DNA from: Vicugna vicugna
Taxonomy: Eukaryota
Assembly: GCA_013265495.1 (NCBI GenBank)
Contig: MU057944.1
Coordinates: forward strand, 124,001-186,000
Direction: 5' to 3'
DNA length: 62,000 nt
Each line of letters opens with the position of its first letter. Position 1 is the stretch's first letter. The notes beneath the pieces were generated by a model, which was not told the DNA's origin, made no database searches, and saw only the letters and a program-made list of their open reading frames with translations. The position numbers and the translations under genes are program-made. Shown piece by piece: positions 43,621 to 56,189 of this stretch.

Positions 43621-45099
43621 TGCCCACCGCACTTAGCCATGTCCCCGATGGATCCCTGAAGGCATCTGAAACAGTGTCCTGGACCAGATGTGTCCAGAAG
43701 GCGAGGGCACGCCCATCTTCTCCACCCACCAGGGCTCAGAGCGGTCTTTCTTTTGTTATGTTCTGCCCATTATCCCAGCAAAGGCAGAGGACTGCAGGGA
43801 TTCCCAGCATCTTCTGTCACCTGGTGTGGGGTCAGTTTACTCCTCCCAGAGTGTTGTGGTTTTCCTTCCCCAGCTGGGAGCACCACCAGCGCTTGGTGTA
43901 CCTGTCAGCCCTCCACTGGGCAGTCAGGGGTCCAGTTAGACAGGGGAAAGGGGACTGAGGCAGCCCTGTGGGCCTCTACAGCTGGGCCAGTGTCCCTGTC
44001 ACTGGGAGGACAAGGAAGGTGTGGGTGGTAGCCGGGAAGGCTAGGATGGATGGTGGCCAGGCCATAGCAGTTGCTCAGAGGCGGACCTTCTTGCCCACTG
44101 ACAAGAAAGTGACGTGTGAAATGTTTTAGAGACTTGCAGGGGGGAAAGTAATTTGGTTCCCACAGCTTGTCAGAAAGCCATAAACCAGTACCAGGACATT
44201 CCCAGAATTCAGGCCTGGGCCAGTGGGAGCCACAGGTTACAGAGCCAGGTCTGAAAAGGGTGGGGTGCGTGCTGCCTGGAAGGGCAGAATAAGGACACCA
44301 CAGAAAATGGGTGACTCCTCACCCAGCCATGGAACCCTGGCTCCCCATGTCTACAGTTGGGGGAAACTGGACCTGCCTCCTGGGGCTGCAGGGAGATAAT
44401 AAGTCCTCCTAAAGAGCATCGTAATCCCCAGATCAAAGGGGGTTCAGAGCTGCAGACTCACTCTGCCAGCCACAGCAGTGGGCGGGTTCAGATCTGTAGA
44501 CCCTCCAAGGCGACACCTCTTCCAGGGCTTGTCTGGCCTCATAACTGGCCCCCTACTTACTCAGGGGCCCAGGCCCGGGCTTCCCCTGGGAACCACCTCA
44601 CCTGCGGCAAAAGGGAGTTCATAAGTAGCACTGATGAATGGACAGAGTGGGAGTTACTGATGCCCCATTTTGTAGATGGGGAAACTGAGACCCAGGAAGT
44701 GAGGTGCAGCCACAGCCCCCCCCCCACCAGGTAACAACTTCCTCACGGGTATGAACCATATCAGTTTTCCTCCCCACTGGCACAGCGATTGCTCTCAGTG
44801 TTGTATTTACTTAAAGAAAGCCTGGTCACACAGCGCAGGTGAGTGAAAGAAGTGTCCCAGGGCTCCCCTTTTCCTGCCCGCTCTTTCCGCCCTCTCTCGG
44901 TCACTTGCTGGGACTTCAGCTCTTCAGCGCGGCTGTCACAAGGGTGCCAGAAGGGTGGAGAGACAAATGCAAACGGGAGGACCAGGCACCTTCCCCTCCC
45001 TCTCTGCACTCACTTGGGGCTTTCAACGACCTGGATTCAGGCCTGTCACTCCCGACCCCTGTGACACTGGCCATCTCTCTAACCCTCAGTTTCTCCAGG

Positions 45100-46220
45100 A
45101 ATGACTATGTGGGGATGCGAGGAGTCGCCAGGGCCAGGCGCACAAAGAGGCGACCTGGCCCTCCCCCGGGCCTTGGGGCGAGTCAGGGCGCCGCCGAGGG
45201 GCCGGGGGCGGGGCCGGGGGCGGGGCGAGCGGCGGCCCTCGCCAGCCCGGAAGGAGCGGGAGGAGGAGCCGCCGGAGTGAGAGTCGCTCCCACGTGAGAG
45301 GCTCCGAGGCCGAATTCCTCGCGTGCGGCGGCCGCGGACGGCCCGGCGTCCGGCCGGACGGAGAGCCCTGGTCCGGCGCGCGCGGGCGGCCGGGCGGGCG
45401 GCGGGGGCGGTGCTCGGCTGCGCCCCGATGCGGCGGCGGCTGCGGGGGTTGTGAGCCCGGCGCCCGCCGTGGGAGCCCCCCGCGCCGCCACAGGCAGCGC
45501 CCCCCGGGCACGCGGCATGCGGGCGGCAGACTGGCACCTGGGAGCGCGTCCGCCAGCTCGCCGCACAGGGCGAGCCGGCGCCTTCCTGCGGGGCGGGGGC
45601 CGGGCCGGCGCGCCCCCCGGGGCCCGCAGCCTGCGAGCCAGGTGCGGACGCGGCGGCGCCTGGTGATCGGCCCCGCACCGGGGCACCCTCAGTTCGAGCG
45701 GATGGCGACTTCAGCCAGCCGGCGCTTCTGCGGGAGGAAGTGTCTCGACTCCAGGAAGAAGTTCACCTTCTCCAGTAGGTGCGCGCCGGGAGGGGAGAGC
45801 GGCGCGGCCGCAGGCCTGGGGAGCGCCGAGGCCGGGCGCGCGGGGGCGCTCCGGGCCGGGATCGGGCCGCCGCTGGTGGCAAAGTTCTCGCCGCGCGCGG
45901 AGCCCCGAGCGCCGGACGAGGTGCACGGGGAAGACGCGCGGAACGCCGAGTTGGTCAGCTTCCGAGTGGGGGTTCGCGCTTTCCGGCGGAGCCCCCTAGA
46001 GAGTTGCAGCGGGAGGTCAAGGCCACGCCTGCAGGAGCCGTGCGATTCCGCGGCGCCCAGCTCTGGGCTGGATCCCGCGCCTGTTCTGGGGAGCGTGGGA
46101 AAGGGGCCAGCGTCTCGCGAAGTTGGGGAGGCCCCCTGTGGCCGCACCTGTAACCCATCAGGCAGCCCCATGAAGTGCCCAGGGGAGCGCTGCCTTCCCG
46201 CCGCCCCTCGCCGTGGAAAG
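45100..46220. promoter_or_regulatory. KAZN: CpG island / internal KAZN promoter (kazrin-B first exon)
   Basis: Very high GC and CpG density; tandem GC boxes GGGGCGGGGC at 45205-45214 and 45217-45226; E-box CACGTG at 45291. Confidence 0.9.
45517..45778 (+). CDS. KAZN: Kazrin isoform-B-type first coding exon, apparently disrupted (frameshift after MRAAD; in-frame TAG at 45776-45778; donor GT at 45779)
   Basis: ATG 45517 gives MRAAD; frame from 45539 gives WERVRQLAAQGEPAPSCGAGAGPARPPGPAACEPGADAAAPGDRPRTGAPSVRADGDFSQPALLREEVSRLQEEVHLLQ*, matching the recalled human kazrin-B N-terminus and coiled-coil start. Confidence 0.65.
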
Positions 46221-46639
46221 TGATGATTCGCCTTTGCTAGGAGATAACAGATTTCTCATACACTTGAACGGCTAGAGCCGAAAGAGAAATTGCAGCGGAG
46301 GAGACACAAATGCAGGGGTCTGATTGTGTATCGTTGGCTAATTCGCCCCAGACGGAGAACTTGAGTGTTAAAGTGTTCCGAGTGGATGCGCCTCTTCCAT
46401 TCTGTTCCGGTCTCAGCTGGTCCCTCCCTGCTCAAGTTAGGTCATAGGGGAGGCTGGGGCGGGAAAAAAACGGCGGGACGGCACAGGAACCCCTGGATCC
46501 TCTTAACTCTGGGGTCGGAAGATGGAAGAGGAAGGGCTTCCGAGAAGGGTCTGTCATCATTAGCTTGAACTTTGAGTACTTTTTCCAGGAAGAATTGAGG
46601 GGGGAGGGCACAATATTTCATTACACCATTACTCATTAT

Positions 46640-46830: not shown

Positions 46831-48599
46831 CAGAATGCCTCTCCCAGGCAGCAGGCTTACCACCTGAGAAACACCAGGGTTATTTATCTATTAATTATTT
46901 CTTTCCTATGAGAAAAAAGCCGACTGCATGACCCCCTAATTCCAGACTGCCTGTATTGGTCTCCCCAGGAGATGGAATCCTGGGGGTCATAGTTCGAGCC
47001 ACAGGAGCTGGGACCACCAACCAGCTGGCTCTGATTAGTGAGCTGCCGCTGGTGTCCTGGAGCAACTGAGGTCTTGGGTCATCAACAGTCTGGAAGAGGG
47101 ACACTGAGGCCTGGAAGGCACTTGAGTCCCTGGGCCCTTGGCTTCAGGGCTGGCCCTGCTGGGACAGTCCAACCACCTCCCCTGTTGCGCAGAGCAGTTA
47201 CAGACCAAGACAGATTGGTGTCAAACAGAGCATAGGTGCAAAGAATAAGCAAATGGGAGGGCTTGGGCTAGATGCTTGACCTTTTTGTGACCCAGTGTAC
47301 CCATCTGTAAACTAGAGATATTAATAATGCCAGCTAACATTTTGATCATTCAGAAACTAGCGTCTGCAAAGCACCTTGCCTAGTTCATAATTGATGCTAA
47401 TGAATGTCAGTTGTCAGCTTTACTTGTGGGGCACCTGTCAATGCCCCCATTGACTCAGTTTCTCACTAGGATGTGATGCTATCCGCTCCATCTCCACCCT
47501 CCTGAACTGTATGAGATGACATTTATCTTGTCTGTAAAATAACTAATGATCCAAGACTGACTGTCCTGCCAGTGGAGGTTGTTATTATGTAAACATGTAA
47601 GAGAGGGCTGGGTGGAGATACATCTGTTTACTTTGTATCTATATAGACTCCATTTTTGTATTCATAATAGCAATATCCTAATGACATGGTGGAGCTGAGA
47701 AAACACCTGTCTCTGAGGTCTGGGGGTGGTTGTTATTCCTGTGGCCCTCACAGTATCCCTGTAGGGCAGAGAGCTGTGGAAATCTCCTTTCCTGATCTAC
47801 AGATGGCATCACTGGCATGAAACAGGATTGAGCCAGCAGCTAAACCAGAAAGTTCTGAGTTCTCTCTACGCCACCACCCTTCACCCCCTACTGGTCTCTG
47901 GTTCTTAAAGACCAAATGCCGTTTCTGAGAACATCCATGGTTGCCGGGCATTGAGGACAGCCTGTCAGGGACATGGGTTCTCAAATCACTGGCTGTTATG
48001 AGGGGTTATCCTCTGGGAGGTAAATGGGAACTCTTCTGGCTTAGCACCTCCAACTGAAGTTATTGCTGAAATAAATATTTTAACCAGGCTGAGAGGGGAC
48101 TTGCCCCAGGATCTCAGCACATTAGTCCCCAGCCTAATGCAATGCTCAGTTTAAGGAGCTAAAAGAGTGCCCTTTTGGATGACAGAATCTGGAAATTGGC
48201 ACTTTCAGAGGCTTGGGGAAGGGGAAAGAGAGAGAGGATCTTTGCTTGGTGGTATGGAGTCCTGGCACCTTGACGTTGCTCACAGGTGATGTCCTGAGAT
48301 CAGCAGTGTGACAGACTCTGTGACACCTGGTGACAGCTCTGGCCTCCAGGCTGGGACTACTTCCAGGGGAGGTTATCATTTATGCCTGGACTAGGCACCA
48401 GAGCAGGAGATGAAGATATTAGATACATGCTCGGTCTGTACCCGGTTCTGCCTGAAATCTGTTGGTCCTTGAGAGTCACGGTAACTCAGTTTCCCTGTTG
48501 GTGTGATGGGAATGAAGGACTCCATCAGAGGGGGCATCTTTCCAGAGCCCCCGCAGAGCGAACTGCTCACCGAGCCTTCTTAGACTGAGAACTTGAATG

Positions 48600-48870
48600 A
48601 TTCTTTCTTTGGTTGTCCGTTCATTCAGTCGCCTTTCTTGAACATCTACTCCTGCCAGGCACTGTTGTAGCTGCCAGGGATACAGCCGCCCGGAGACAAC
48701 TGCAGGGCTTGTTTCCATGGAGCTTCTGTTCCGTGGGAGGAGATTTCCAGTAGGCAGATACACACAAGGATGTGTCAGGGGATGGGAGGTGCTGGGCAGA
48801 AAAATCAGCCAGGTGAGGGGTTAGGGTGATGGGAGCAGGTGGTCAGAGAGTGCACTTGAGAAAGAGGTGA
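48600..48870 (-). mobile_element. L2 3' fragment
   Basis: ttcattcag...ctactcctgccaggcactgtt...catggagcttctgttcc. Confidence 0.65.
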
Positions 48871-49149
48871 GGTGTGTGGGCGCTGAGTCCCAAAGGCAAG
48901 ATGGAATTCCAAATTGCTGATCGGCTGTAAGGAAACAAGTCATTTTTTTTTTTTTAAGTCGTTGGTAAATTAGTGTCTTTGTAGACTGGGCGCTTTATCT
49001 GTTCACATCTGAAGCCTACCCAGGCTACCTTCTTTATTAGTCATATGATTTCTTATCCCCTCTTGCCCCTCCTCCTCACTTAAAGTGCCCTGGAGAAGGC
49101 GGGGTCCTAGTGTATCTGTGTAGAGACTCCCAGCTCATGTCCTCCCAGG

Positions 49150-49330
49150 GCCAGGCTTGATGCTAACCAAACACCCAGCTTTGTCGTAATCAGTCCTCCA
49201 ACAACCCGGGGGTGGGGTGCAGTTGCTGATTTCATCCACAGATGGGGAAACTGATGCTCAGAACATTTAGTAACTAGGCTGAGGTCACATAGCAGGTAGG
49301 TGTCACAGCCAGGACTTTGTCCCAGACTGT
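49150..49330 (-). mobile_element. MIR SINE
   Basis: acagatggggaaactgatgctcaga...gaggtcacatagc. Confidence 0.65.
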
Positions 49331-49869
49331 AGACCTCAAAGCAGTGCGGAAAGACCTTGTATTGATCTTAAGAAAGTAGACCTTTAAAAAAAAAAAAACT
49401 AAACTAAAATTTTTTAAAATTTTAAAAAGAAAAAAATGAAAGTAGATACACATTGTTTCAGGTCCATTTTTCCTTTACATTTTTATCTTTAAAAATATGT
49501 GTCCTCTCCTTGACATTCCTTGTTTTAAGCAACTCAAGTATTTGCTTATCTTTGTGCCTTTAGCAATTTCCTCCTTAAGTCGGCTTTGTGTTATCCCTTC
49601 TGTAAAGGGTTTCTGCTGGGTTGGGGGTGGAATTCAGTCTCCACCTTGGAACTGGACATGCTCTTAGAAAGTCACCCACTAGGATCACAACAGTTTAGTG
49701 TGAGCTTCCCTGGTAACAGGGTGGGACAGATATGATTGGGGGCTTGGCTGTTCTGGATATTCAGGAAGGAAAGTCATTGTTGTTGAAAAAATGTTCGATT
49801 AGTTTCCCTTGGAAGGTTTTTGGGGCCCAGTTCCCTCCAACCTGTGGACTGCAGCTTCCTTCTGCCAGG

Positions 49870-50035
49870 GCAGTGGGCACAGGGCACCGCATTTGGAATC
49901 AAACGCACCTGGTTTGATCTCACCAGTCCTGTCGCTTACTAGCTATGTGTCCCCAAGCGAGTTAGTGCATGTCTCAAGCCTCAGTTTACCCATCTATAAA
50001 TAGGATCACATTACCCACCTCAGAGTTGTTGGATA
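49870..50035 (+). mobile_element. MIR SINE
   Basis: cttactagctatgtg...agcctcagtttacccatctataaa. Confidence 0.65.
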
Positions 50036-50694
50036 GGAATCTGTATGGTTAGCATCCTTCATACCATGGGGCCTGCTACTCCTGATGCCATAGAGGGAGG
50101 GGGAAATTCCCGTTTATCCAGAGTCCAAAGAACTTGTGAGTGTGTGTATGTGTGTGTGTACAATTTTTTTAATTTTTGAAGTTTGAAATAGTGAGATTTG
50201 ACGAGACAGGTGATTCTGGAGGAGTACTAGCTGCTTATTTGGCCTTCTGAATCATCAGGAAATTTCCAGAATGGTCATTATGTGCTCTTTATGGTCTATG
50301 TAATATTCCAACCGAGTCAACTGGATGATTTGCTAGCACCCTCCAGCCATTCTGGGGAGAGAAGAGTTTACTCCCCTTTCAATCGTCTCAAGAGCCACAG
50401 GGCACGCGTGGCTCAAGGTTGGTAGCAAACACGACCCCAGGGTTGGCTTCTCCCACCCGTAAATACATCAGCCACATGGGCACGTACACAGATTTTAGCC
50501 CCAGCAGAAAGCACATCGAGCGCATCATTAAGTGTCCAGAGCATCGCCGTGGGGAGCCTTGTTTGTGAGTCACTGAGGACTTTAAACACTCCAGGGAGGC
50601 TGGCAAGCCGTGGCTGCAAGTGTGTGTGCGTGTGTGTGTCGTTATTTTTTATACATTTACCCTCCGTAAAAGCATTTCGTGTTGAGCGCGTCAG

Positions 50695-50956
50695 ATGAGT
50701 GCCTGTCCGGGAGGGGGAAAGTCAGGATTGCTTCCTGTTCACAAGGACCACCCCTTCTGTACCTGCTGGGACAGCCATCATGAAGGTGGGGACTTCAGGC
50801 TCTCTCTTATCTGCTGTTTGGATGCCTTCAAGAGAAGCCGGTTAGAAGATGTTGATTGTGGCAATTCCTCAGAGCCCTCACCAAATGGCATTAGCCCAGC
50901 AGGTGCTGCCGCAGCCCCAGATTTGGAAAAAATTAACAGCCGGAAAGGTTTGACAG
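50695..50956 (+). CDS. KAZN: Candidate alternative coding first exon of KAZN (87 codons + 1 nt, phase 1)
   Basis: Repeat-free ATG-initiated ORF MSACPGGGKSG...SRKGLT ends at donor CAG|GTAGGT in phase 1, the phase needed to form G|TG (Val) with kazrin exon 2; AP-1 site TGAGTCA at 50566 upstream. Confidence 0.5.
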
Positions 50957-51399
50957 GTAGGTGAGTCCTGCCTGGTGTCCTAGCCCTGAGCTGGGTGATG
51001 CAAACCCTGGGCTCAGGAGCTGGGCATTCAGTGGTGGCGACCCTCCAAGTGTGTCGTGCTGGGCTTTGGGGACCACTTCTGGGAACACCCACCACCCGGT
51101 GGCCCGTCTGCAGGTGCTGACAGCCGCGCCTTTTGTCACTGCCCAGATTTAGAGGCTGGCTCAGGCTCCCAGCTAGTTCAGGCTGTAACTTTATCATAGG
51201 CATTGTGTTCAGTACCTTTTAATTGTGCAGAAGCTTCAGAAAATGCTCCCTGGGGGCCTGGAGAGAGGTTAAAAACAACAGCTGCTGGCTCCCGTGTGCG
51301 TTATTCCCTCACCTTATGGCTCAGCCTTGCCCGTGCACCCCTAACTTTGCAGTCCTATGTGCCGGGCTGGGAAGAATACGCATTTCTGGTTGGTAAGGT

Positions 51400-51493
51400 C
51401 CTATTGATGATGAGGAATCATTTACTGAGGGCCGCCCGGGAGCCGAGCGCTTTGTTACTTGCGTTCCTGTCGATCTTCCCCGACCCCTGAAAG
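51400..51493 (+). other. KAZN: Candidate non-coding alternative first exon of KAZN (kazrin-C-like)
   Basis: CpG-enriched, repeat-free patch ending in AAG|GTACCT; its ORF stops (TGA 51488) before the donor; 5' boundary is a guess. Confidence 0.3.
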
Positions 51494-52100
51494 GTACCTG
51501 GCGTTCTCCCCGTCTTACAGGGCGGACAGCTGAGGCGTAAAGAGGTACACAGGTTGTAGTAAGTGGCTTTGCCAGGCTGCCAGGCTGGCTGCCGGCCCCA
51601 CTGCTTTTCCCCTGCGGAGTCATTCATCAGCTGATGATTCCCTGAGAGCCACCGGGGCAGCAGGCAGAGGCTGTGATGCTGGGAGTCATGGGATTTTCTG
51701 GTCTTTGGCTCGCTGGCACCCAGTCAGCCAGAGGCAGTTGGGCGGGAGGGCGCCTGGGGCCCAGAGCAGCTCCCTTGGCTCCCAGAGACTTACCCCACCC
51801 CTCTGGCCCAGGCAGAATCCAAGGAGGTCGGCCGGCGCGTGACGAGAGGTCCAGCCCTGGCCGTTTGGGAACCTGGAATGCAGAGCCCCGAGCGGGAAAC
51901 CTCGGCAGGGCGGGGATCAGTCCACTCCCTCTCCAAAGCGAGGGAACTGGGCCTCAGAGCGGGGAAGGGACCACGCTCCACGATGTCACGTGGGATCATC
52001 TCCAGGGTCAAACGTGAAAACCCACAAAGGTACTTGGATGCCTTGGCAAGGCCGGGCGTTCTCTCCCTCACCCTCTTCCCTAACCCCCCCTGACCTGTCG

Positions 52101-52285
52101 CAGCGGCCTCAGGCTTTAAGGAGCACAGTAGTCCGAGGGTGACTGCTACTTGCAGATTCTCAGGCTCCACCTCAGGATCCTGACTCTATAGGTCCCAGGA
52201 AGAGCCTGGGAATCTGTATTTTTAATCAAGTTCCCGGAGTGACTTTGACGCAGGGGTTCCACGGATCAGAGTTTGAGAACCTCTG
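52101..52285. mobile_element. MER5B/MER5A-like MITE
   Basis: tgcagattctcaggctccacc...gggaatctgtatttttaatcaag...tttgagaacctctg. Confidence 0.7.
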
Positions 52286-52311
52286 CCCTACACCTTTCTA
52301 GGGTTGGGAAT

Positions 52312-52460
52312 GATTTTTTTAAATATTTATTTATTATTTGATTATTTTAGCACAGGGGGGCATAATTAGGTTTATTTGTTTTTAGAGGAGGTGCTGGGGA
52401 TTGAACCCAGGACCTCCTGCATGCTACATGTGCTCTACCACTTGAACTATGCCCTCCCCA
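52312..52460 (-). mobile_element. Vic-1-type tRNA-Ala SINE (camelid)
   Basis: Reverse complement: GGGGAGGGCATAGTTCAAGTGGTAGAGC...GGGTTCAATCCCCAGCACCTCCTCTAAAAACAAATAAACCTAATTA...CCCCCC plus A-rich tail. Confidence 0.85.
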
Positions 52461-53327
52461 CTAGGTTTGAGTGAATTTTAGTGGAAGAAACCAGGGAGGC
52501 CGTGTACTCTGGCTTACCCCCTGCGCCCTGACGTAATCCTTAGCAACTTCTTTTTCCCTCCCACTGGTGACCCGAAGTGGACTGTAGGTACATTGACAAC
52601 CTAGTTAAATCCCACTTTTTCCTTTTCTAACCCAATTTCCCACCCCCTTCTCTCCCCTCATCCTCACTCAGATTATCAGAATCTACTAGAAAGAGGCACA
52701 TGCTTTCCTGCCTCATGCTCTCACAAGACGGCAGTGGTCGGAAACAGCCAGAGTGAGGCTTTGTCTTTCCTGAGCCCCAGGCTGTCACCAGCCTCCACTG
52801 GACCTTCCACTGAACCAGCGTTCCTTCTGCTTTGAGCTCCTTGGAGGGGCCAGGCCCTGGGCTGGGTGCTGAGGAGTCAGATGAGACCACGCTCTTGACC
52901 GTGGTCCATCTGGATTCTTCAGACTTGGTACCAAACCCCCCGGAGGGGCTGGCTCTTCCAGGCTCCCCAGCCCAGGCCGCCCCCTCCCTTCTGTTGTTGG
53001 TTCCAACATTGTACCAGTGGCAGCTGTGTCTGGCTAGGCGGCCTGTCAGTGTTTCCTCTTGGCACCTCTCCCCGTGTCCACAGTGCGGACAGCAGCCATG
53101 GGGACTGTCTATCACGTTACACCCTATAGGACTTCTCAGCTCCTGCAGGGTGGGAAGCCAAGGGGCCTGGGTGGCAGGGTGGGAAGGCTTTGCCTATGAC
53201 CACCCCTCTCCCTGCGTGGGAGACCAGCAAAGAGCTGAGTCCCGGGGCCAATGGGCTTGAATGCAGATTCTGGGGCCCACAACCAAGATTGACTTAGTAC
53301 GTGTAGGGTGGAGGTAAAGACTCTGCA

Positions 53328-53590
53328 TTTTTTTTTTCTGGCAGTAAAATATAAATCACATAAAATTTACCATTTTGCCCATTTTTAGGCGTACAATTCA
53401 GTGGCATTAAATACATTCACAATGTGTGCCGCCATCACCACTAGCCATTTCTAGAACTTTTTCATCATCCTGAACTGAAACTGTACCCATTAAATCATAA
53501 CCCCCACTCCCCACTAACCCCAGCCCCTGGTAACCACCCCTGGTTCTGCTGTCTCTATGCCTTTGCCTGTTCTGGGTGCCTCATACAGTA
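53328..53590 (-). mobile_element. L1MB-like 3' end inserted in a MER5-type MITE (53255-53665)
   Basis: acataaaatttaccattttg...gtacaattcagtggcattaaatacattcacaatg. Confidence 0.8.
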
Positions 53591-54709
53591 TCTGCAGGAC
53601 CCCACACTTTTAATGTACCATCCATCCCTGCCCCTTTGAGGATGGTCCTGGAACCACATGTGGCGATCCCCTGTCCTAGATGCTTTATCCCAGTGTTTCT
53701 TTCATTTCCTTCATTAAAAACACAACCACCTCACAGGTGTGCTGGGAAGGTTTAGGGAAGAAAGAAATTCAGTTACCTTTTGTGGGGCTAAAACCAGTAT
53801 ATTGTCAACGCCTCTGCCACTGATGCATTAAACGCATCATTTTTGTTTGTTTGGTTTTGTTTGATGTAGTTTTTCTGTTTGGTTGGTTTTTTAAGAGTGG
53901 CTTGAGCTCTTCCTAGTTTGTCTTCTGAAGCATGTTTGTGACTCCTGAGCTTAAGGGCCACTCAGTGCCCTGGGGAATCTGCCTTGGGCCAAAGGTCAGC
54001 TGACGCTGAGAAGTGCAGGGAGACAGCATCTCCTTCTGGGTGTGCCCTGCCTGGGTCTCAGAGAAGATTCTGTCAGCCTGGGGTGAGGGTGGGGGCTGAT
54101 GCAGGCATCCTGTCTAAGTGCTCAGCTTCCCCATTCTAGCTGCCAGGCACTGCCTCCATCCCTTTCAGATGAAGGGCTGGGACAGGGGTCAGGGGGAACC
54201 AGTCAGGTCTATGCCTTTGCAGTCCCAGACTGTAACCACCTGCACACCCTAATTATTTCTTGCTGCCAATCAGGGTTCAAACATCCAACCAAGGCTGACA
54301 GTCGTCTCTGATCTTAGGGCAGGTTTTTTTGTTTTTTTGTTTTGCCAGGTGGCCCTCTGCTGCTTCCCCTTAAACCAGCCCCAGCCTTGGTGGGCTTGCT
54401 TTGGGACCTTCCACTGCACCAGCCCTCATCTTCCTATGCTCCTTCGAGGCCTTTCTGGCTGCATTTACAGCCAAACGGAAGGGAAACTTCCATCCCTGAT
54501 GGTCCCTGTGGATTCCTTCCTCTTGAGCTCTGGAGCAGACATAGATGCTGCCCCTGCCAAGCGGGACTGCCTGCTTCCACTATCAAGTGCAGGGTAGAAA
54601 CTTCTGCCCCACGTAGCCTTCCCTCTCTGTGGTACCCTGGGAGAAACCAGTGGGGAGTCCCTTTTTATAGAAGGGGAAATGGAGGCAGACACGATGTGAT
54701 CTCTTTGGT

Positions 54710-54885
54710 CCAGACTTGTCTGGTAGAACTCCTTGCCAAGATGGAGATGTTGTCTACCTGCACTGTCCTGTACGCTGGCCACTGTGTTTAAAAGGTAGCT
54801 AGTATGACCACAAAACCAAATGTCAAATTCCGCTTCATCTTAAAAGGCCACACGTGGCTAGTGCCTACCACTCTGGATGGTGTGG
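54710..54885. mobile_element. MER3-like MITE
   Basis: tagaact...gatggagatgtt...gccacacgtggctagtgcctacc. Confidence 0.65.
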
Positions 54886-55269
54886 GTGGCCCCGCGTCAG
54901 GGCATGATAGCACAGGTGTGTGTGGCCCGTCACAATTCATGAAGCGGAGACAGGTTTCTTTCCACTGTGCTCCTCGAAGGCTGCCATGCCTCTCCATGTG
55001 GTCCCTGGACCGCCAGCGTCGAAATCACTGAGCTTGTGGTTTTTAAGTTCCTGGACCGCCTACCGGACCTGAACAGTCAAAACTGGGCCCAGGAATCTGC
55101 ACTTGAAACATGTTCCCTCCACCTCCACCCCCAGGTGATTCTGACCTTCCCTGAAGTTTGAGAATCAAGGGCTCCAGCAGATTCCATCTTTACTGCTGTG
55201 GGTCTTCCCAGCCTCCAATGGCCCATGCGCCTTTGTGCCTTTGCTACCAGCCCATCACATGCACCAGGC

Positions 55270-55450
55270 CAGTGGCTCTCGAGATGGGCTGCCAAGACCA
55301 GGAACATCAGGCTCACCTGAGAACTTGTTAGAAATGCAAATTCTCGGCCCGCCCCAGATCTACAGAGTCAGAAACTGGGTGAGCCCAGCTGTCTGGGGCT
55401 TAACAAACCCCTCCAGGTGCCGCTGATGCCGCTGCAATGTGAAACTAGTC
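55270..55450. mobile_element. MER5A MITE
   Basis: tcacctgagaacttgttagaaatgcaaattctcgg...taacaaacccctccaggtg. Confidence 0.8.
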
Positions 55451-56189
55451 CCTGAGCAAGGCTGCTCTGGGAAGCTCCTGCTGCTTAAAAATTTCCCCCC
55501 AAATCCTCTTGTCTGTCTTCTCCTCCCCCTCCCCTGACCCGTTGCCTCTGGACCCTGGGCTGTCCTCTTGCCAGCTGCTGAGAGCTGCCAAGACCCTCCC
55601 ACACCCAGGGACTGTGAGTGTGTGGCAAGAGGAACCCTCCGCCTTTCACAAGGGCCTCCGGGACCCCGGCTGTCACAGGGATGCTCTCTAGGGGAGGCAA
55701 GCCGAGCAGTGGCCAGCAGCACCCCCACCCTCTCTCCCAGCATCCCAGGTGGTGGCCACCTGCTCGTCCTGTGCCCGAATCTCAGAAGAGCAGAGGGCCA
55801 GAGGGCCCATTTCCCTGGGGCCGTCTCTTGGGGCAGGGTCCCTGCTGCTTCCCCGGGCATCCATCAGCCAGGAGGAAGTTGGCACAGCTCATAGCTGTGC
55901 TCAGCAGACAGCCCTTGTCTATTTCATGTCATCCCAGTGTGCACAGAAAGCAGGGCGGGTGGCGGCCAGAGCAGCGCTGGCTGTGCTGCTTACCTGCTGT
56001 AGGACCTTCCCTGTGCAGGTCACTCGTCTCTGAACCCCAGTTTCCCTGTTCTGTGAAGTGAGAGCCACAGTGCCAGCCTGGCAGAGCGCACAGAGCCGCA
56101 GTTGCTTTCCCTGAGCCCACGGATCTGGAAGCGCTTTGCACACTCTGAGGCACCTTACAGATGTGGCCGGTGAGGGCAGACCTGGGCCT

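What the first reader, a model, noticed from the sequence alone, without database searches (positions are those of the whole stretch)
45722..45784. KAZN first exon contains an intron-less copy of the start of common exon 2, ending in a stop and a new donor
Seen: right after the kazrin-B-specific ...DGDFSQP, the genomic sequence continues in frame as A-LLREEVSRLQEEVHLL-Q-TAG, followed by GTGCGC. No GT donor lies at the QP junction. Established (recalled): VLLREEVSRLQEEVHLLRQMKEML begins the exon shared by the kazrin isoforms, which lies tens of kb downstream in human, and MKEML... is not in this window. Inference: about 55 nt of exon 2 have been placed behind exon 1b. Possible routes are cDNA-mediated gene conversion or partial retro-insertion from the spliced mRNA, or an old exon-fragment duplication. 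The copy ends at RQ->Q* with TAG|GT as the new 5' splice site. It could splice to the normal exon-2 acceptor, or to an internal CAG|ATG acceptor before MKEML.
Basis: partly seen in the sequence, partly recalled or inferred. Interest (0 to 1): 0.75.

Follow-up and report, generated by a model that had tools for sequence, protein, structure and literature searches.

The report
Next-exon patch at kazrin intron start
In this camelid DNA, 52 bases from the kazrin gene's second exon sit exactly between an alternative first exon and the intact start of its intron, likely copied from a spliced copy of the gene in an aborted intron loss that would remove one kazrin form, although an assembly error is nearly as likely.

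Summary
Window 45723-45774 (52 nt) copies the start of KAZN exon 2 (17 of 17 residues match Camelus kazrin B; chance about 1e-21), joined to exon 1b exactly at the splice junction. Two corrections: the donor is not new, since 11 genomic read-through proteins of other mammals show GTAGGT at 45775 is the ancestral intron start, and the TAG is simply intron bases 2-4. The template was therefore spliced. Best reading (0.45): germline repair from a processed DNA copy that stopped after 52 nt, an aborted intron loss. Main rival (0.35): an assembly artefact from retrocopy reads, a published signature. No reads were laid on the locus, and word shares in public runs cut both ways. If real and the old donor is used, ATG 45702 gives a new 24-residue N-terminus in frame with exon 2. 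The scan had no look-alike on other DNA.

The parts
45237..45516 (+). CpG-island promoter and 5' leader of KAZN exon 1b
   Evidence: GC 0.86, CpG O/E 1.08 for 45300-45516; matches upstream read-through translations of other mammals, 81-83% identity
45517..45722 (+). Coding part of exon 1b (kazrin B N-terminus), broken: net 2 nt short just after MRAAD; A55T and C66F relative to Camelus B
   Evidence: 206 nt instead of 208; translations against P0063; C66F in 0 of 87 B-type proteins, T55 in 5 of 87
45517..45666 (+). 49-codon ORF from the old kazrin B ATG, now an upstream ORF ending 35 nt before ATG 45702
45702..45774 (+). Second ATG (G at -3 and +4) and 24 codons plus one base; in frame with exon 2 only if the donor at 45775 is used
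   Evidence: phase 1 at 45774, phase 2 at 45778; the ATG is older than the insert: P0114 and P0033 show it in other mammals
45723..45774 (+). 52-nt copy of the start of KAZN exon 2; last base does not fit the R87 codon
   Evidence: 17/17 residues match; 43 of 50 bases match a bat exon 2 deduced from two reading frames, 6 differences synonymous and 1 in codon 87
45775..45780 (+). Ancestral 5' splice site of intron 1b (GTAGGT), displaced by 52 nt; its exonic -1 base is now A instead of G
   Evidence: read-through proteins ...QP-GRCAPG and P0114 ...AAS-RVGAR; U1 pairing 6 Watson-Crick + 2 wobble versus 7 + 3 before (consensus recalled)
45779..45784 (+).
   Evidence: U1 pairing 5 + 3; use not shown
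45775..46220 (+). Start of intron 1b, colinear with other mammals and with no bases lost at the junction
   Evidence: 87.5% identity over 40 codons to P0018; 3 of 4 HMMER hits begin at query residue 24-25, none covers the insert

Best explanation
Fifty-two bases of KAZN exon 2 lie exactly between exon 1b and the intact first base of its intron, likely because a germline DNA break in exon 1b was repaired from a processed (spliced) DNA copy of kazrin B and copying stopped 52 bases past the junction. Shown: the copy, its junction-exact left end, the intact intron start, the broken B frame. Inferred: the exon-1b end invaded a retrocopy or cDNA, copied through the exon 1b/exon 2 junction, and the unpaired 52-nt tail was looped in where exon 2 resembles the intron start (5 of 7 bases), so that nothing was deleted; a decayed donor would also have brought in the frameshift, A55T, C66F and R87Q. 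This is an aborted intron loss. Predicted effect: no kazrin B protein from this allele; exon-1b transcripts would give kazrin C from the ATG inside exon 2, or a new N-terminus from ATG 45702 if the old donor is still used.
For: Left join is base-exact at the phase-1 splice junction and gives the cetartiodactyl A70 codon. Flanks are the true locus on both sides, promoter and intron. No target-site duplication or poly(A) (sequence). A decayed B-type copy exists in Camelus ferus on another contig (P0096, 9 substitutions before a shifted tail, shares the camelid A48); that it lacks introns is inferred, not seen. Missense density in the window patch (3 in 87 codons) does not differ from that copy (9 in 397; Fisher p 0.46), and Camelus B differs from four whale proteins by only 1-2 residues in the same 87 codons. 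Conversion from retrocopies to parent genes and intron loss by recombination with processed copies are described (PMC5470649; TOGA2 preprint; passages).
Against: No reads were laid on the junctions, so the sequence rests on one assembly. No donor with the window's lesions was found: P0096 has P34H and S67K, which the window lacks, and lacks A55T, C66F, R87Q. None of 14 DNA-type runs holds more than 0.82 of the words, lower than a fixed allele would predict. The 5-of-7 match is reached at 3 of 59 positions and rests on a bat sequence. Pig, sheep and yak B differ from Camelus by 5-7 residues in the same codons, so three missense changes alone are not extreme. CpG content shows no clear drop over the patch (O/E 0.74-1.16 in seven sub-windows). 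Isoform B is kept in 76 spliced proteins across placentals, including Camelus, so its loss should be selected against.
Confidence: 0.45

Rival explanations
1. Assembly artefact: reads from a decayed kazrin-B retrocopy were placed on the GC-rich parent exon during correction or consensus calling, writing in their substitutions, the frameshift and the overhanging exon-2 bases as an insertion at the point where homology ends.
For: Reads from processed pseudogenes give false long indels at intron-exon junctions of the parent gene, e.g. PRKRA (PMC11719938, passages). The insert starts exactly where homology ends, loses no base and is shorter than a read. GC is 0.71-0.88 around it. A B-type copy exists in Camelus. 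No run holds more than 0.82 of the words; a run lacking all four window changes would hold about 0.86. No protein with the insert frame was found.
Against: The RNA word count favours the window's version about 5 to 1 if those contigs are exon only (pmf 0.079 versus 0.015). The window has no N and resolves the whole CpG island, which suggests long reads, with which a 2-3% diverged copy is usually assembled apart (own knowledge). The paper concerns variant calls, not assemblies. The protein collections hold no camelid genomic read-through at all (A48 only in P0063 and P0096), so their silence says little.
Confidence: 0.35
2. Direct repair on the gene's own spliced mRNA: the intron-side end of a break at the exon border primed on exon 2, copied 52 nt back into exon 1b and re-annealed; exon 1b then decayed in place once isoform B was lost.
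For: Strand polarity fits (a sense RNA can only template the lower strand growing from the intron side; inference). Spliced mRNA can template break repair in human cells (PMC12065846, passages). Needs no donor carrying the lesions, and fits the mismatch with P0096.
Against: Needs a break exactly at the border and a primer end with a mismatch at its second base. The published scar is whole-intron deletion, not insertion. Four lesions arising in place imply an old event that all close relatives should share, yet DNA runs top out at 0.82.
Confidence: 0.15
3. DNA-level duplication of an exon-2 fragment by template switching from the genomic exon 2, with no spliced intermediate.
For: Short templated insertions from distant DNA occur (PMC5110952, passages).
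Against: It would have to start at the first base of exon 2 and land after the last base of exon 1b by chance, carrying no intron base, and it does not explain the other lesions.
Confidence: 0.05

Closest known systems
Precise intron loss by recombination with processed copies, and whole intron deletion by RNA-templated break repair (PMC12065846; TOGA2 preprint 10.64898/2026.06.30.735536; passages)
   Same: A spliced exon-exon junction is written into the gene's own locus.
   Different: Here the intron start is kept and 52 nt of the next exon are gained, which disrupts the frame instead of preserving it.
Gene conversion from a retropseudogene to its parent (Casola et al. 2012 as cited in PMC5470649, passage)
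   Same: Parent exon carries pseudogene-like lesions; a decayed B-type copy exists in Camelus.
   Different: The tract runs past the exon end and leaves a non-homologous insertion; the donor alleles were not matched.
Class 2 templated sequence insertion polymorphisms (PMC5110952, passages)
   Same: Short templated patch without target-site duplication or poly(A); spliced cDNAs are among known donors.
   Different: Those are described as coming from distant regions; this one lands at its own splice junction in register.
False long indels at intron-exon junctions caused by processed-pseudogene reads (PMC11719938, passages)
   Same: Same position and same kind of sequence.
   Different: Described for variant calls in human resequencing; here it stands in an assembly, with the cause untested.

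Membership tests
Whole intron deletion / precise intron loss | Spliced exon-exon junction present at the gene's own locus | tested here: met
Whole intron deletion / precise intron loss | Intron removed | tested here: not met
   intron start intact and colinear with other mammals
Whole intron deletion / precise intron loss | Dependence on a reverse transcriptase (Pol zeta in PMC12065846) | not testable with these tools
   historical event
Retrocopy-to-parent gene conversion | A processed copy exists in the lineage | tested here: inconclusive
   B-type 'kazrin-like' on another Camelus ferus contig; its DNA and intron status not seen; no genome held for the window
Retrocopy-to-parent gene conversion | Converted tract carries the donor's alleles | tested here: inconclusive
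   0 of 4 window lesions are seen in the P0096 protein, but that copy is from a Camelus record and may not be the donor
L1-made retrocopy (class 1 insertion) | Target-site duplication, poly(A) tail, TTTT/A site | tested here: not met
   none in the sequence at either end; features as in PMC5110952
Class 2 templated sequence insertion | No target-site duplication or poly(A) | tested here: met
Class 2 templated sequence insertion | End-joining marks (microhomology, untemplated base) | tested here: inconclusive
   one shared G, 5 of 7 match reached at 3 of 59 positions, one non-matching base at 45774 (bat exon 2)
Class 2 templated sequence insertion | Polymorphic and heritable | not tested
   no reads laid; word shares do not resolve it
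Pseudogene-derived false indel | Lies at an intron-exon junction and consists of next-exon sequence | tested here: met
   PMC11719938
Pseudogene-derived false indel | Not carried by molecules that span the parent locus | not tested
   no reads laid
Intron sliding | Both intron borders shift by the same distance (PMC7730772) | not testable with these tools
   exon 2 and its acceptor are outside the window

The most novel reading that the evidence does not exclude
A real, inherited aborted intron loss in camelids that killed kazrin B and at once created a new isoform: the exon-2 copy, read in another frame from a previously out-of-frame ATG (45702), supplies a basic 24-residue N-terminus that splices in frame onto the true exon 2 and so keeps the leucine-zipper-like segment that kazrin C lacks, with the old B start turned into an upstream ORF.
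Probability: 0.12. Interest if true: 0.75.

Novelty: new variant of a known kind. Interest (0 to 1): 0.45.

Why it matters
If real, it is a frozen intermediate of intron loss: a spliced junction written into a mammalian gene while the intron stays. It would show how repair from spliced copies fails at long introns, give a searchable scar (next-exon sequence wedged before an intact donor), and make a natural kazrin-B null or a new isoform. If it is an artefact, it matters as a warning: this assembly would carry retrocopy sequence in parent genes, so apparent gene losses in it need read checks.

Tried and rejected
No whole genome is held, so exon 2 and a retrocopy could not be sought. Self-search of the window: no second copy. 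Protein searches with the insert frame: 0 of 28 candidates scored (169-541 aa); 2 of 662 scored, both intron-only matches from other mammals; 4 HMMER hits, none covering the insert; two window ORFs spanning the insert are not in the collection by exact look-up. These are uninformative, as no camelid genomic read-through was found. Two exact pattern scans of metagenome contigs found 0 matches each. Word shares do not decide: DNA 0.77-0.82 against 0.94 expected if only the insert were missing and 0.86 if all four changes were; the 0.20 and 0.11 RNA rows are small shares and were not used. Cluster lists show no other camelid B isoform, but only 15 of 70, 15 of 28 and 15 of 17 members were listed for the three largest clusters. 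CpG-decay test over the patch: no clear signal. Rejected: ancestral contiguity; L1 insertion (no hallmarks); ATG 45702 as newly made (present in P0114 and P0033); frameshift compensating the insert (net +50 nt, and the old frame stops at 45664). Literature: no paper on camelid KAZN in the listings (20 of 25 listed; 5 of 5; 15 of 4,717, swamped by camelid terms, so weak). No report of a next-exon insert with an intact intron was seen in the titles and abstract starts; most subscription journals are not searched.

Full report
Observation. The window reads ...DGDFSQP-ALLREEVSRLQEEVHLLQ* over 45701-45778. Seventeen residues from the junction are identical to Camelus kazrin B; by base composition the chance is 1.4e-21 at one place and 1.8e-16 anywhere in the window. 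No GT lies at the QP junction, and neither MKEML nor a second copy is in the window. Human kazrin has four first exons spliced to exon 2, B starting in exon 1b and C inside exon 2, with a leucine-zipper-like motif in exon 2 upstream of the C start (PMC2172441, passages; its supplementary figure of exon borders was not seen).

Locus and organism. A search with the B frame gave 33 proteins among 3,195 candidates. Translated matches on both sides, 44866-45500 upstream and 45777-45896 downstream, and a further first-exon-like segment at 50728-50952, show that this is the true KAZN locus and not a retrocopy. The window shares A48 with only 2 of 87 B-type proteins, both from Camelus, so it is a camelid; my calls do not say which.

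The ancestral state. Of 112 proteins held, 87 carry the exon-1b end: 76 are spliced forms and 11 are unnamed genomic read-throughs (8 clusters) that go QP-GRCAPG or close to it. The window's third frame has FTFSS-RCAPGGE, and P0114 reads the border in that frame as AAS-RVGAR. So the ancestral intron begins GTAGGT, this start is intact at 45775, and exactly 52 nt (45723-45774) stand before it. The TAG is intron bases 2-4, and the second GT is ancestral intron sequence. None of the read-throughs is a camelid; for Camelus the evidence is an annotated in-frame B protein (P0063).

From ATG 45517 to the exon end there are 206 nt instead of 208, and that frame stops at 45664 after 49 codons. Against Camelus B the patch also has A55T, C66F (0 of 87) and, at the end of the copy, R87Q (in no held protein). 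Camelus ferus has a second B-type 'kazrin-like' on another contig with 9 substitutions, a two-residue insertion and a shifted tail (P0096), likely a processed copy (inferred; its DNA was not seen). Its two changes in the first 87 codons differ from the window's. Whales differ from Camelus B by 1-2 residues in these codons, pig, sheep and yak by 5-7, so the frameshift and C66F weigh more than the count.

The right junction. Two reading frames (P0033 from a bat, P0063) fix the exon-2 bases: the insert matches 43 of 50, with 6 synonymous differences and 1 in codon 87. Just past the copy, exon 2 matches the intron start at 5 of 7 bases; this is the top score but 3 of 59 positions reach it, so it is a modest hint. 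There is no target-site duplication or poly(A).

Mechanism. Shown: a spliced junction at the gene's own locus with no base lost. Inferred: a break in exon 1b was repaired from a processed DNA copy; synthesis ran 52 nt into exon 2, the unpaired tail was looped in at the short match to the intron start, and a decayed donor passed on its lesions (0.45). Conversion from retropseudogenes and intron loss through processed copies are described (PMC5470649; TOGA2 preprint; passages). Direct repair on mRNA (PMC12065846, passages) with later decay is possible (0.15), but its known scar is loss of the whole intron. The same picture arises in silico: reads of processed pseudogenes give false long indels at intron-exon junctions (PMC11719938, passages) (0.35). 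A DNA-level duplication (0.05) needs two coincidences.

Real or artefact. No genome is held and no reads were laid on the locus, so this is open. Fourteen DNA-type runs under four coded organism labels hold 0.77-0.82 of 102 words of 45500-46500, and four RNA-type runs hold 0.23. A run lacking only the insert would hold about 0.94, one lacking all four changes about 0.86, so every reading needs further losses; the ceiling leans against a fixed allele. The RNA count of 23 words fits an exon with the window's changes (25.7 expected) better than ordinary B (15.9; p 0.03; ratio about 5), but only if those contigs are exon alone and words are sampled evenly. The two hints roughly cancel. Protein and metagenome searches found nothing with the insert but found no camelid genomic sequence either. 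Earlier notes on this genome describe APOE and VAPA loci sharing sequence with processed copies and two possible collapses; they are unchecked, I could not test them, and I treat them only as a lead for a genome-wide scan. No look-alike was noted in other genomes and no note lies near 47500-56000.

Consequence if real. Kazrin B cannot be made from this allele. The old donor lost its exonic G (U1 pairing 6 + 2 against 7 + 3 before; the second GT 5 + 3, consensus recalled), so which is used is unknown. With the old donor, ATG 45702 gives 24 codons in frame with exon 2, 35 nt behind the stop of the upstream ORF; this ATG is old (P0114, P0033) and the frame fit has a one-in-three chance. With the second GT no upstream ATG is in frame and the mRNA would behave like kazrin c or d. 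Mice tolerate loss of exons 5-15 (PMC3398255, passages), which says nothing direct about B.

Comparison and verdict. It works like an intron loss that stopped half way, but is not a member of that class because the intron start is intact; it lacks the L1 hallmarks; it fits class 2 templated insertions in lacking them (PMC5110952, passages) but lands at its own junction; intron sliding needs both borders (PMC7730772, passages) and cannot be judged here. I saw no report of this form in the listings, and none on camelid KAZN; I read passages of eight papers, no full text and no supplement. New variant of a known kind, interest 0.45, held down by a one-in-three chance of artefact that one read alignment or PCR would settle.

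Noticed in passing
window 45761-45784: The end of the copy forms a pyrimidine run followed by CAG and TAG, directly before a GT. This resembles a 3' splice site abutting a 5' site (a recursive-splice pattern, recalled) inside the long intron of transcripts that start at exon 1a. Use untested.
   Followed up: no
window 50728-50952: Matches the 75-residue N-terminus of a seal kazrin isoform (P0109) at 64% identity; likely another alternative first exon about 5 kb behind exon 1b.
   Followed up: partly
P0096 (XP_032325888.1, Camelus ferus): B-type 'kazrin-like' on a different contig from kazrin, with 9 substitutions, a two-residue insertion and a shifted tail but an open frame of 410 residues; likely a young retrocopy.
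   Followed up: partly
window 43862-44041: 68% match to the predicted N-terminus of a pig kazrin model (P0014); may be conserved upstream sequence rather than an exon.
   Followed up: no
whole window: Only three self-matching repeat pairs at E < 1e-8 in 62 kb, so few young interspersed repeats.
   Followed up: no
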